A stretch of 64,000 nucleotides of DNA, from the NCBI RefSeq assembly GCF_013167455.1, contig NZ_CP038328.1, one strand, 5' to 3'. Position numbers: made by a program. The DNA comes from Escherichia coli O157:H7. Its GTDB lineage: Bacteria; Pseudomonadota; Gammaproteobacteria; Enterobacterales; Enterobacteriaceae. Positions 6,001-9,000 of the stretch are shown piece by piece. Within the stretch, counting starts at the first letter, position 1; each line of letters begins with the position of its first letter.

Positions 6001-9000
6001 TGCGCCTGACAGGCGGAACTTACAGGTCAGTCTGCCGCCCTGTGTCAGCAGGGTAATTGCGTCATCCACCGGATGCGTCAGGGACCAGGTTTTATTGCTC
6101 TGCCTGGTGATCTTAAATACACCATCTGACAACTGAATTCCGCCATCCTTAATGCTCCAGCCCTGCGCAGCAGCCTCTCCGGCTGCCGGCAGCAGGGAGA
6201 TTGTGCGAACGGACGTATCTGCAGACGGACCCGATGGCGTGTTGCCGCCGGGCGAGGGTTTGATTTCCGGTGCCTTACCACTGATGAAGGCTGAGGTGCG
6301 CCCGGCTGCGTTCAGAATAGCGGTTGCCATACGATCCGGAATAATGCTCCTGCGCGCCCATGAACTGAAATGTGTCGGGCGGTTTGATGATACCTGGTTT
6401 CCATTCGTTCTCGATGCCGCACCGTAATATCCTGATGCCGGAATATCCGGATCTTCTGCCGGCGCGTTAGTGGCGGTATTGACGCCGTTACCGTCTGTCA
6501 TGAAGGGCACAAAATAAACGCCCTCACTCTCCCTGTTTTTGTACGCCCCGTAAATGGTGTTGTACTGGGTGCCGTAGGTATTTTTCCAGTAATACGTCGT
6601 GTCACCACAAATCCACGGCACATCTGCAGCACTGCCACCATGGCACTGCGCGTTAAACACGGAGAGGTCAGCACGAAACTGTGCCAGCATGGCTGTAAAC
6701 AGCGCAGGTTGCTGTGCGTGGGTGGCGGCGCTCATGTCAAACTCTCCCTGCATCCAGCACACCGCCAGCAACACATTTTTCGGGTTCTTCTGTAATGCAG
6801 CTTTAGTGCGCGCAATCAGGTCCTGATATAACGGTTTACCCACACCCCAGCGCGCCGAATCCTGGCTGGCCCCCGCGTCCGCACTGAATGTCCCCTCCGC
6901 GCCCTGGGTGAATGCCGAACCACCACGACAGCATGGTACCAGCAGGATCCCCGCGTTATTCGGGATATACGGAAGCAGTTTTTTGGCAATATGTAAGCCC
7001 TGGCCGACACAGCCGTACTGCCCTTTGCTCAGGTCTGCCTTCGGATGATTCAGCGTACTCATATCCTGCACATCATGCAGGCAGTGGTCGGCCGGAATAA
7101 TATCGTTATATCTGCAGGCAGCCCCACCCGGCGTAACTGTACTGCGGCGCGCCAGCTGTTTAATGCGCGGATCCGGAGCATCGTATGAATCCGGCAGCGG
7201 AAGCCCTTCACCGTAAGCCATGGCATTGGACTGCCCGGCCAGTACGATGACGTAGTACCAATCCGGCTCAGTTGCACCACTGACCACCACATCACCTTCT
7301 GCTGTAATCACCTGCATCAGGGTATAAGGGGTTATGGCCACCGGACTACCAAACGGCTGCCAGCCCTCTTTCAGTTTGTGTGTCAGCTTTTCCGCAAGGT
7401 CTGACGGCGACGCCGCCCTGACAACATCATAATGTTTAAATGTCATTATTCCTCCCCTTTCCGGGATTTTCCTCAACAGTTGCGGGCCACGGTCCGGCCA
7501 CAAGGAGAATCAAAAGAGGAGAACCGCAGCCCGCAAAACGAAAAAGGCCGCGCAGTTGCGCAGCCTTATAAACCCTGGTTAAAATCCACACGATAAAAAT
7601 GACAATGCAAGTATCTCATGCTGTTGCCCGAACCCACTCGGGCTTTTTTTTGCATGTAAAAAGGCTCCTGCGATGAGAAGCCTGGATATATGCCTAATCT
7701 CTGTATACAGCATGATGCCGGGTGCCTCCCGGTGAATTCTGCAATGACCAGACAGAATCCGCAACTTGCCTATACAATACGCAACCAAACATCTGTCATT
7801 ATGCCCCGCCGCTCAGGGGGATTCATCATGCAGGATTTTTTTAACAAACGCTCAGCATGTCAGGCAACAGTCAACTGCCTGAATTGTGAGGCATTTAACA
7901 TTTCACTGTCCGGTGTCTTTCCTGTAATAAAAAGCCCGCAAAAGAGAGTCAGGGCAGATAAGTGTGGTGTGGTGCGTTGTACTGGATTCGAACCAGTGAC
8001 CGATTGCTTAGAAGGCAATTGCTCTGTCCGGCTGAGCTAACAACGCAGAATACCGATAATGGACCGCCACCGGGGACTCCGAATCTCGCACAGGGTGACG
8101 TTCTTTCCTGATGAGCTAGTGGCGGTTGGTGGCCCTTGCTGGATTTGAACCAGCGACCTGGCGATTATGAGTCGCTCGCTCTCACCGCTGAGCTAAAGGG
8201 CCGATTGCTGAATAATAACGACGCATGATTAACTCCGCAATCTCATCCGTTACGAATGATTAAATCCTGTACTTCCCGCACCGTCTGCTCAAAACGTTCA
8301 GTCTCCAGTTCAACGCCAGTTGCACGACGTCCCAGCGCCATCGCTGCTTTCACTGTCGACCCCGACCCCATGAAGAAATCTGCAACCAGGTCTCCCGGAC
8401 GACTGCTTGCGCTGATTATCTGCTGCAACATTTCTGCCGGTTTTTCGCACGGATGTTTCCCTGGATAGTACTGCACCGGTTTATACGTCCACACATCGGT
8501 GTACGGCACCTGCACCGTCACACCGAAATACCGCCGCAGATGCTTATATTCACTCTGCAGCTCCGCATACTGTCGGTTCAGAGAGGCATACGTATCCACC
8601 AGCTGGTGGTGGGGCTTTTCCAGTTCACCCCGCTGATGCTTCTCTTCTGCCACCCGGGCAAACAGTGCCTGTAATTTCAGATAATCGCTTTCGTTCGGCA
8701 GCTGCCACTGACCGGCACTGAACCAGTGCGACACCATGTTTTTCTTTCCTGTGGCATCTGCAATCTGTTTTGCCGTTATCCCCAGGACAGCGCGCGCATC
8801 ACGAAAGTAAGCAATCAGCGGGGCCATCACATGCTGTTTCAGTGTCCTACCCTTCGCCTCATACCCGGCATCTTTCGGACGATACGGCCCCTGATAATGC
8901 TCTGCGAACAGAATGCGCTCTGTGGCGGGGAAATACGCCCGCAGGCTTTCCTTGTTGCACCCGTTCCAGCGTCCGGACGGCTTTGCCCAGATGATATGGT

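What the first reader, a model, noticed from the sequence alone, without database searches (positions are those of the whole stretch)
7970..8202. Prophage tRNA cluster with an atypical, non-canonical middle element
The outer two elements fold as normal tRNAs (CAU and UCU anticodons, supplying rare AUA/AGA decoding). The 80-nt spacer between them keeps tRNA-like ends (TAGCTCA D-arm start, GTGGCGGT-CCA 3' end) but the body is about 67 nt and lacks foldable anticodon and T arms, so it may be a decayed tRNA or a processing signal.
Basis: seen in the sequence. Interest (0 to 1): 0.45.

Follow-up and report, generated by a model that had tools for sequence, protein, structure and literature searches.

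The report
Dead middle tRNA gene in prophage cluster
The odd 80-base stretch between two normal prophage tRNA genes is the wreck of a third tRNA gene that has lost its anticodon arm, which is an ordinary pseudogene found in hundreds of E. coli genomes.

Summary
All three elements lie on the minus strand. tRNA-Ile2(CAU), the ileZ type, is at 8202..8127. tRNA-Arg(UCU), the argO type, is at 8046..7970. Each scores about 71 bits against the Rfam tRNA model.

The 80 nt between them hold a 66-nt relic (8125..8060) of the third gene of the known lambdoid ileZ-argN-argO cluster. Compared with intact relatives, it has a 12-nt deletion that removes the anticodon loop and the 3' half of the anticodon stem. 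It also has a broken D-stem pair, a second T-stem mismatch and an extra base in the T loop. Only 13 of 21 cloverleaf pairs survive.

ARAGORN finds nothing there even at 40% of its thresholds. Rfam finds nothing at E<=10. RefSeq annotation leaves the gap empty.

The closest intact allele carries anticodon UUU, not the UCG of 933W argN. The same dead allele sits about 90 bp upstream of stx2c in Stx2c phages and occurs at >=99% identity in 381 complete E. coli records.

In 127 sampled clusters, 34 have a dead middle gene, arising by at least three independent routes.

Verdict: a tRNA pseudogene. I found no evidence for a processing-signal role. Interest is low.

The parts
8212..8240 (-). Putative tRNA promoter, the homologue of 'pT' annotated in phage 933W. 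The -35 hexamer TTGCGG is at 8240..8235, followed by a 17-nt spacer and the -10 hexamer TATTAT at 8217..8212, which ends 9 nt before the ileZ 5' end.
   Evidence: The 933W record NC_000924 annotates 'pT; putative tRNA promoter' immediately upstream of ileZ. In alignment A3, the TTGC and CGTTATTAT columns are invariant across the window, 933W, Stx2a_F349 and L007. This is sequence conservation only. The simple promoter scan did not flag it.
8127..8202 (-). ileZ-type tRNA-Ile2 gene (anticodon CAU) with encoded CCA. It is intact.
   Evidence: ARAGORN. Rfam tRNA 70.9 bits. PGAP annotates 'tRNA-Ile' in the identical EDL933 sequence.
8060..8125 (-). 66-nt relic of the middle tRNA gene (argN slot).
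- Acceptor CCGCCAC/GTGGCGG is 7/7 paired, followed by U73 and CCA.
- D stem GCTC/GAAC is 3/4 paired (G to A at 8101).
- Anticodon arm is 0/5 paired, with the 12-nt deletion junction at about 8093/8092.
- T stem CGAGA/CCCCG is 3/5 paired (G to A at 8084).
- T loop is 8 nt, UUCGGAGU, with an extra G at 8080/8079.
   Evidence: Alignments A1 and A3. Pair counts. Nearest intact allele. No tRNA call.
8126..8126 (-). Single-base (A) spacer between the CCA of ileZ and the first base of the relic.
   Evidence: Sequence. The same 1-nt spacing is seen in Stx2a_F349 and PPompW clusters, whereas 933W-type clusters have 7-9 nt.
8047..8059 (-). 13-nt A/U-rich spacer UUAUCGGUAUUCU between the relic's CCA and argO.
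   Evidence: Sequence. It is conserved in clusters with an intact middle tRNA.
7970..8046 (-). argO-type tRNA-Arg gene (anticodon UCU) with encoded CCA. It is intact.
   Evidence: ARAGORN. Rfam tRNA 71.4 bits. PGAP annotates 'tRNA-Arg'.
7926..7953 (-). Weakened homologue of the hairpin-plus-T-run that 933W annotates as a possible terminator after argO. The window has GACTCTC-TTTT-GCGGGC-TTTTT where 933W has GGCTCGC-TTTT-GCGGGCC-TTTTTT.
   Evidence: 933W annotation and alignment A3. The terminator scan did not flag it.

Best explanation
The middle element is a pseudogene, the disabled copy of the third tRNA of the lambdoid-prophage ileZ-argN-argO cluster. One ancestral 12-nt deletion removed the anticodon loop and the 3' strand of the anticodon stem. 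Without an anticodon the RNA cannot decode.

ArgRS and LysRS both read the anticodon, according to established tRNA identity rules, so the RNA should not be charged either. That step is inferred, not tested here.

After the deletion, further changes accumulated in the D stem, T stem and T loop, as expected once selection is relaxed.

The relic is still embedded in the tRNA transcription unit. It is probably co-transcribed with ileZ and argO from a pT-like promoter and from Q-dependent late transcription. It is probably cut away during maturation of its two intact neighbours and then degraded. All of this is inferred.

The two flanking tRNAs remain the working cargo of the cluster, decoding AUA and AGA. 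The dead allele arose once and has been moved among lambdoid prophages by recombination.
For: (1) Homology and lesions. The relic aligns column for column with annotated argN of Stx2a_F349 and 933W and with the 'tRNA-Lys(UUU)' of PPompW. Relative to all of them it has a 12-column gap over the anticodon arm.

(2) Closest intact allele. The UUU allele (L007 type) is nearest. Outside the deletion it differs at about 3-4 substitutions, depending on where the gap is placed, plus one inserted G in the T loop. One substitution breaks a D-stem pair and one breaks a T-stem pair.

(3) Surviving structure. 13 of 21 cloverleaf pairs remain: acceptor 7/7, D 3/4, anticodon 0/5, T 3/5.

(4) No tRNA call. ARAGORN finds nothing at default settings or at 40% thresholds. 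Rfam finds nothing at E<=10. PGAP annotates nothing there. Intact homologues score 43-44 bits.

(5) The intact family is a genuine constrained tRNA. Across 32 distinct alleles, 97.2% of cells are paired and the anticodon stem is 100% paired. Four pairs show compensatory double changes, and 0 of 500 shuffles reach the observed score.

(6) No special fold. The relic folds at -21.8 kcal/mol against a shuffle mean of -20.96, z = -0.27.

(7) Recurrent loss of this slot. Of 127 ileZ-anchored clusters, 34 have an uncallable middle element, falling into at least three unrelated lesion classes.

(8) Single origin and spread. The identical deletion plus point lesions occur with different 3' spacers. They occur both upstream of stx2c (L002) and in this stx-less prophage. 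The allele is present at >=99% identity in 381 complete E. coli records.
Against: No expression or processing data were available, so the fate of the relic RNA (degraded, or stable) is inferred.

The acceptor stem is perfectly paired and followed by CCA, and the allele is widespread. A residual role is therefore not formally excluded. However, 0 changes in 14 acceptor positions against about 4 in 51 other positions is not a significant difference.

Even 'intact' argN homologues score only 43-44 bits and carry a T-stem mismatch. The functional status of the ancestor is itself assumed from covariation, not shown.
Confidence: 0.9

Rival explanations
1. The relic is retained as a processing signal. 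Its intact 7-bp acceptor helix plus CCA would still be recognised by RNase P. Cleavage at its 5' end, one nucleotide after the CCA of ileZ, would define the ileZ 3' end. The structured spacer would also keep the two flanking tRNAs folding independently.
For: The acceptor stem is 7/7 Watson-Crick and is followed by U-CCA. Only 1 nt separates the ileZ CCA from the relic. In a fold of the whole 243-nt precursor, the relic forms its own domain closed by an 8-bp helix. From established knowledge, bacterial RNase P can cleave acceptor/T-arm minihelix substrates.
Against: The T arm that RNase P uses together with the acceptor stem is damaged (3/5 pairs, 8-nt loop). Acceptor conservation is not significantly greater than in the rest of the relic. 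One variant of the same allele (L059) already has an acceptor mismatch, and another dead class has only 5/7 acceptor pairs. The fold is no more stable than shuffles. tRNA 3' ends in E. coli can be made by RNase E cleavage plus exonucleases without a downstream RNase P site (established knowledge).
Confidence: 0.06
2. The relic is processed into a stable tRNA-like small RNA with a regulatory or decoy role, for example binding a tRNA-interacting protein or nuclease.
For: The allele is common (381 records at >=99% identity) and lies in a region rich in prophage sRNAs, with STnc100 and AgvB about 100-500 bp downstream.
Against: There is no Rfam family match, no excess fold stability and no sign of constraint. 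The lesions are the kind expected from neutral decay. Its abundance is explained by hitch-hiking in O157:H7 prophages.
Confidence: 0.03
3. The element is an integration or recombination scar, that is, a partial tRNA duplicate left at a phage or island attachment site.
For: tRNA genes are frequent integration targets, and partial tRNA copies are common at prophage ends (established knowledge).
Against: Attachment-site scars keep only one end of the tRNA, usually the 3' end. This element keeps both ends and lacks an internal 12 nt. It also sits in the same slot as the intact gene in dozens of related clusters, in the middle of the late region rather than at a prophage border.
Confidence: 0.01

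Closest known systems
argN, the middle gene of the ileZ-argN-argO tRNA cluster of Stx phage 933W and other lambdoid prophages (GenBank NC_000924 annotation)
   Same: Same slot between ileZ(CAU) and argO(UCU). Same location downstream of a Q antiterminator and upstream of the stx/nanS-p position. Conserved pT-like promoter and 13-nt spacer before argO. Clear nucleotide homology over both ends of the gene.
   Different: A 12-nt deletion removes the anticodon arm, and there are D-stem, T-stem and T-loop lesions. It is not callable as a tRNA. 933W argN has anticodon UCG and a 9-nt spacer after ileZ. The window relic has a 1-nt spacer and is closer to the UUU allele.
The UUU-anticodon allele of the same slot (annotated tRNA-Lys in PPompW prophages; L003 and L007-type loci)
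   Same: It is the nearest intact relative. Outside the deletion it differs only at about 3-4 substitutions plus one inserted G in the T loop. It shares position 7 = C, the D loop AUCAGGAAA, the variable region UGUG and an identical 3' acceptor strand.
   Different: It has an intact anticodon arm (UCAAC/GUUGA, loop CCUUUAA) and scores 44.4 bits as a tRNA.
Other dead alleles of the same slot (the 100-nt, 97-nt and L094 classes)
   Same: All are uncallable middle elements between intact ileZ and argO.
   Different: Their lesions are unrelated. In the 100-nt class the anticodon arm is replaced by a foreign-looking segment and the T loop is GCGGGTC. In the 97-nt class point mutations break the acceptor (5/7) and the G18-G19 and T-loop motifs. 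L094 has a D-arm indel. These represent independent decay events.

Membership tests
Canonical tRNA (Rfam RF00005) | Score at or above the 29-bit gathering threshold of the tRNA covariance model, or a call by a tRNA finder | tested here: not met
   No tRNA hit at E<=1 on 2.5 kb or at E<=10 on 96 nt. ARAGORN finds nothing at default settings or at 40% thresholds. PGAP leaves the gap unannotated.
Canonical tRNA (Rfam RF00005) | Anticodon stem (5 bp) and a 7-nt loop carrying an anticodon | tested here: not met
   A 12-nt deletion leaves 0 of 5 pairs and no loop.
Canonical tRNA (Rfam RF00005) | D stem of 4 bp, T stem of 5 bp and a 7-nt T loop | tested here: not met
   D stem 3/4, T stem 3/5, T loop 8 nt (UUCGGAGU).
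Canonical tRNA (Rfam RF00005) | 7-bp acceptor stem, discriminator base and 3' CCA | tested here: met
   CCGCCAC/GTGGCGG is 7/7 paired, followed by U and CCA.
ileZ-argN-argO cluster of lambdoid (Stx-type) prophages | Position between ileZ(CAU) and argO(UCU), downstream of Q and upstream of the stx/nanS-p and lysis genes | tested here: met
   Gene order on the minus strand is Q-like (DUF1133/Phage_antitermQ), DNA methylase, ileZ, relic, argO, STnc100, SASA/DUF1737/DUF6645 esterase, holin. 933W has the order Q, pR', pT, ileZ, argN, argO, stx2AB, SASA esterase.
ileZ-argN-argO cluster of lambdoid (Stx-type) prophages | Nucleotide homology of the middle element to argN | tested here: met
   Alignments A1 and A3. 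There are 4-13 differences to 32 intact alleles over the retained columns.
ileZ-argN-argO cluster of lambdoid (Stx-type) prophages | Middle gene encodes a functional tRNA-Arg(UCG) | tested here: not met
   The anticodon is deleted. The nearest intact allele has UUU, not UCG.
tRNA pseudogene | Clear homology to a structurally constrained tRNA family, plus disabling lesions | tested here: met
   Family constraint: 97.2% of cells paired, 4 covarying pairs, 0 of 500 shuffles reach the score. Relic: 13 of 21 pairs and no anticodon.
tRNA pseudogene | No stable, charged RNA product | not testable with these tools
   This needs tRNA sequencing, northern blots or aminoacylation assays.
RNase P minihelix-type processing element | Coaxial acceptor and T-arm helix with 3' CCA | tested here: inconclusive
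   The acceptor stem and CCA are intact, but the T stem has 3/5 pairs and an enlarged loop. The MFE fold keeps the terminal helix, but z = -0.27.
RNase P minihelix-type processing element | Demonstrated cleavage at the 5' end, and dependence of the neighbours' maturation on it | not testable with these tools
   This needs an in vitro RNase P assay or a deletion mutant.

The most novel reading that the evidence does not exclude
The relic is not inert. Because only one nucleotide separates it from the CCA of ileZ, its preserved acceptor helix plus CCA would be kept as an RNase P entry site that matures the ileZ 3' end.

More broadly, the middle slot of this prophage cluster would be a fast-turnover 'experimental' tRNA position. 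It switches anticodon (UCG, UCU, UUU) and is repeatedly discarded, perhaps in response to host tRNA-targeting nucleases rather than codon supply.
Probability: 0.07. Interest if true: 0.35.

Novelty: already known. Interest (0 to 1): 0.1.

Why it matters
It matters little for biology, but it is useful for annotation. The 80-nt gap in O157:H7 and Stx2c-phage tRNA clusters should be labelled as a tRNA pseudogene. These prophages should be counted as supplying two tRNAs (AUA and AGA decoding), not three.

The survey adds one modest point. The middle tRNA of this widely cited 'rare-codon' cluster is dispensable. It has been lost independently at least three times and is dead in about a quarter of sampled clusters, including immediately upstream of stx2c. 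The codon-supply argument for Stx expression therefore cannot rest on it.

Tried and rejected
Tried without useful result:
- I lowered ARAGORN thresholds down to 40% to force a pseudo-tRNA call. Nothing was found.
- I ran a permissive Rfam scan of the 96-nt stretch. It gave only chance hits, SMAD5-AS1_3 at 12.5 bits and rli47 at 5.9 bits.
- I searched the literature for 'ileZ/argN/argO' in the held library and got no hits. The 933W genome paper was not held. I therefore relied on the GenBank annotation of NC_000924. Two papers gave general context on tRNA genes downstream of Q and in Stx2 phages.
- I looked for microhomology flanking the 12-nt deletion in the nearest intact allele. None was convincing by inspection.

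Considered and rejected:
- An attachment-site scar, because both tRNA ends are kept.
- An 'armless' functional tRNA, because known armless tRNAs lack the D or T arm, never the anticodon arm.
- The possibility that the 12 nt is an insertion in the relatives rather than a deletion here, because the relatives are the canonical cloverleaves.

I could not test selection on the acceptor stem statistically. There are too few independent decay events, and 0/14 against about 4/51 changes is not significant.

Full report
**What is there**

ARAGORN finds two tRNA genes at exactly the reported boundaries, both on the minus strand: tRNA(CAU) at 8202..8127 and tRNA-Arg(UCU) at 8046..7970. The Rfam tRNA model scores them at 70.9 and 71.4 bits, against a gathering score of 29.

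The window is 100% identical here to E. coli O157:H7 EDL933 and to many other O157:H7 chromosomes. RefSeq annotates the two genes as tRNA-Ile and tRNA-Arg and annotates nothing between them.

The 80 nt between them (8126..8047) read on the minus strand as A-CCGCCAC-UA-GCUC-AUCAGGAAA-GAAC-G-UCACCC-UGUG-CGAGA-UUCGGAGU-CCCCG-GUGGCGG-U-CCA-UUAUCGGUAUUCU. The acceptor is CCGCCAC/GUGGCGG with discriminator U and CCA, which gives a 66-nt body at 8125..8060.

**It is not a tRNA by any detector**

- There is no Rfam tRNA hit at E<=1 on 2.5 kb or at E<=10 on the 96 nt alone.
- ARAGORN finds nothing even at 40% of its thresholds.
- PGAP leaves the gap empty.
- As a free RNA the spacer folds at -21.8 kcal/mol. 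That is no better than shuffled sequence, which averages -20.96 (z = -0.27).

**What it is**

A megablast of the cluster against phage genomes finds 289 records, mostly Stx2 phages. Some annotate ileZ, argN and argO (Stx2a_F349; 933W). Others annotate tRNA-Met, tRNA-Lys and tRNA-Arg (PPompW).

In alignments A1 and A3, the window's spacer matches the middle gene column for column. The exception is a 12-column gap that covers the anticodon loop and the 3' strand of the anticodon stem. There are three further lesions:
- A D-stem change, GAGC to GAAC, at 8101.
- A T-stem change, CGAGG to CGAGA, at 8084.
- An extra G in the T loop at 8080/8079.

Mapped onto the cloverleaf, 13 of 21 pairs survive: acceptor 7/7, D 3/4, anticodon 0/5, T 3/5.

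**The intact family is a real tRNA**

I collected 127 ileZ-anchored clusters from IMG/VR and extracted 35 distinct called middle alleles. On the 32 alleles of 77 nt (alignment A2), 97.2% of pair cells are standard pairs and the anticodon stem is 100% paired. Four pairs show compensatory double changes, and no shuffle of 500 reaches the observed covariation. Sliding the partner columns drops pairing to 29-54%.

Intact alleles score 43-44 bits against Rfam tRNA. That is lower than their neighbours but well above threshold. The window element is therefore a broken member of a constrained family, not a diverged working one.

**Ancestry**

The nearest intact allele is not 933W-type argN (UCG) but the UUU-anticodon allele (L007 type). 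Outside the deletion it differs at about 3-4 substitutions, depending on where the gap is placed, plus the inserted G in the T loop. One substitution breaks a D-stem pair and one breaks a T-stem pair. UCG and UCU alleles differ at 8-13 positions. I found no convincing microhomology at the deletion ends.

**Distribution**

The identical dead allele occurs in 15 Stx2c-converting phage genomes. In L002 it lies with argO about 90 bp upstream of stx2A.

It also appears in IMG/VR loci with a different 3' spacer (L038, L046) and with one acceptor mismatch (L059). This pattern points to a single origin followed by recombinational spread.

A 116-nt query spanning the deletion junction matches at >=99% identity in 381 complete E. 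coli records.

**Decay of this slot is recurrent**

Of the 127 clusters, 34 have an uncallable middle element:
- 21 belong to a 100/101-nt class, in which the anticodon arm is replaced and the T loop is GCGGGTC.
- 7 are the window's 80-nt class.
- 6 belong to a 97-nt class, in which point mutations leave the acceptor at 5/7 pairs and the G18-G19 and T-loop motifs are lost.

There are also one-off variants such as L090 and L094. Representatives of these classes (L024, L016 and L090) get no Rfam tRNA hit for the middle element. Their lesions are unrelated to each other. ileZ and argO stay intact throughout.

**Context and likely working**

On the minus strand the gene order is:
- a Q-like antiterminator (DUF1133 plus Phage_antitermQ, 10433..9891);
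- a short ORF ending in a hairpin-plus-T-run at 9465..9448, which may be tR';
- an N6/N4 DNA methylase (9301..8243);
- ileZ, the relic and argO;
- STnc100 (7860..7652);
- a SASA/DUF1737/DUF6645 esterase (7503..5593);
- the holin and lysis genes.

This is the Stx-phage late-region layout without stx (compare 933W).

The putative tRNA promoter pT annotated in 933W is conserved just upstream of ileZ, with TTGCGG at 8240..8235 and TATTAT at 8217..8212.

I infer that the relic is co-transcribed with its neighbours and removed during their maturation by RNase P at the argO 5' end and by endo- and exonucleases at the 3' ends. It has no anticodon and three damaged arms, so I infer that it is neither charged nor stable. 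None of this could be tested here.

**Rival: a processing signal**

The intact acceptor helix plus CCA, only 1 nt after the CCA of ileZ, could still attract RNase P. In the fold of the whole precursor, the relic forms a separate domain closed by an 8-bp helix.

Several observations count against this reading:
- The T arm needed for RNase P recognition is damaged.
- Acceptor conservation is not significantly above that of the rest of the relic.
- Other dead alleles, and one variant of this allele, have acceptor mismatches.

I give this reading about 6%.

**Verdict**

The element is an ordinary tRNA pseudogene in a well-known prophage tRNA cluster of a heavily studied genome, and it is of low interest. 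The only mildly notable by-product is the evidence that the middle tRNA slot of this cluster is evolutionarily labile, with anticodon switches among UCG, UCU and UUU and repeated loss.

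Noticed in passing
window 7652-7860 (-) and 7591-7650 (+): Just downstream of argO lies a full-length STnc100 sRNA match (175 bits). Convergent with it is an AgvB-like anti-sRNA (56.6 bits, gathering score 56; it also hits AsxR at 46.8 bits). The two end in back-to-back hairpin-plus-T-run terminators at 7683..7662 (-) and 7626..7643 (+). They occupy the place where stx2AB sits in 933W.
   Followed up: partly
related loci L007, L008, L011, L020, L066 and others, and L003/L064 (PPompW): The middle slot of the cluster carries different anticodons in different prophages: UCG (about 69 of 127), UUU (about 15) and UCU (3). Compensatory changes occur at pairs 7:66, 27:43 and 30:40. 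The UUU allele has C rather than the near-universal U at position 33. It often sits in a four-gene cluster, ileZ, tRNA(UUU), tRNA-Thr(UGU), tRNA-Gly(UCC).
   Followed up: partly
L001 1596-1672 (Stx2a_F349 argN); L003 (PPompW): These alleles have a G3:U70 wobble pair in the acceptor stem (CCGCCAT/GTGGTGG). This is the classic alanyl-tRNA synthetase identity pair. Only 1 of the 32 distinct alleles in alignment A2 has it. PPompW's 76-nt allele, which was left out of A2, shows the same pair. Whether it causes mischarging is unknown.
   Followed up: no
L024, L027, L041-L043, L048, L062 and others (100-nt class); L090: This is the commonest dead class of the middle slot (21 of 127). The anticodon arm is replaced by an unrelated-looking segment, AGACGACACGATAACAGGGTTGTTGG, and the T loop is GCGGGTC. 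L090 is a hybrid with the same segment but a normal T arm. The origin of the segment was not traced.
   Followed up: no
L125 2296-2372 (933W argO) compared with window 7970-8046: 933W argO has G at position 37 of the anticodon loop (CUUCUGA). The window, Stx2a_F349 and the Stx2c phage have A (CUUCUAA).
   Followed up: no
window 9448-9465 (-), 9452-9649 (-): A strong hairpin-plus-T-run (GCCTTCAGTCCTGAAGGC followed by TTTTTT) lies at the end of a 65-aa ORF with no Pfam match, between the Q-like gene and the methylase. It is a candidate tR' terminator of the late-promoter leader.
   Followed up: no
window 13329-13445 (-), 14142-14291 (-), 51004-51609 (+): Other Rfam matches in the window are an ALIL pseudoknot (a match to an insertion-sequence element), sok antitoxin RNA beside hokD, and three RtT repeats following the tyrT/tyrV tRNA-Tyr genes at 50875 and 51169.
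   Followed up: no
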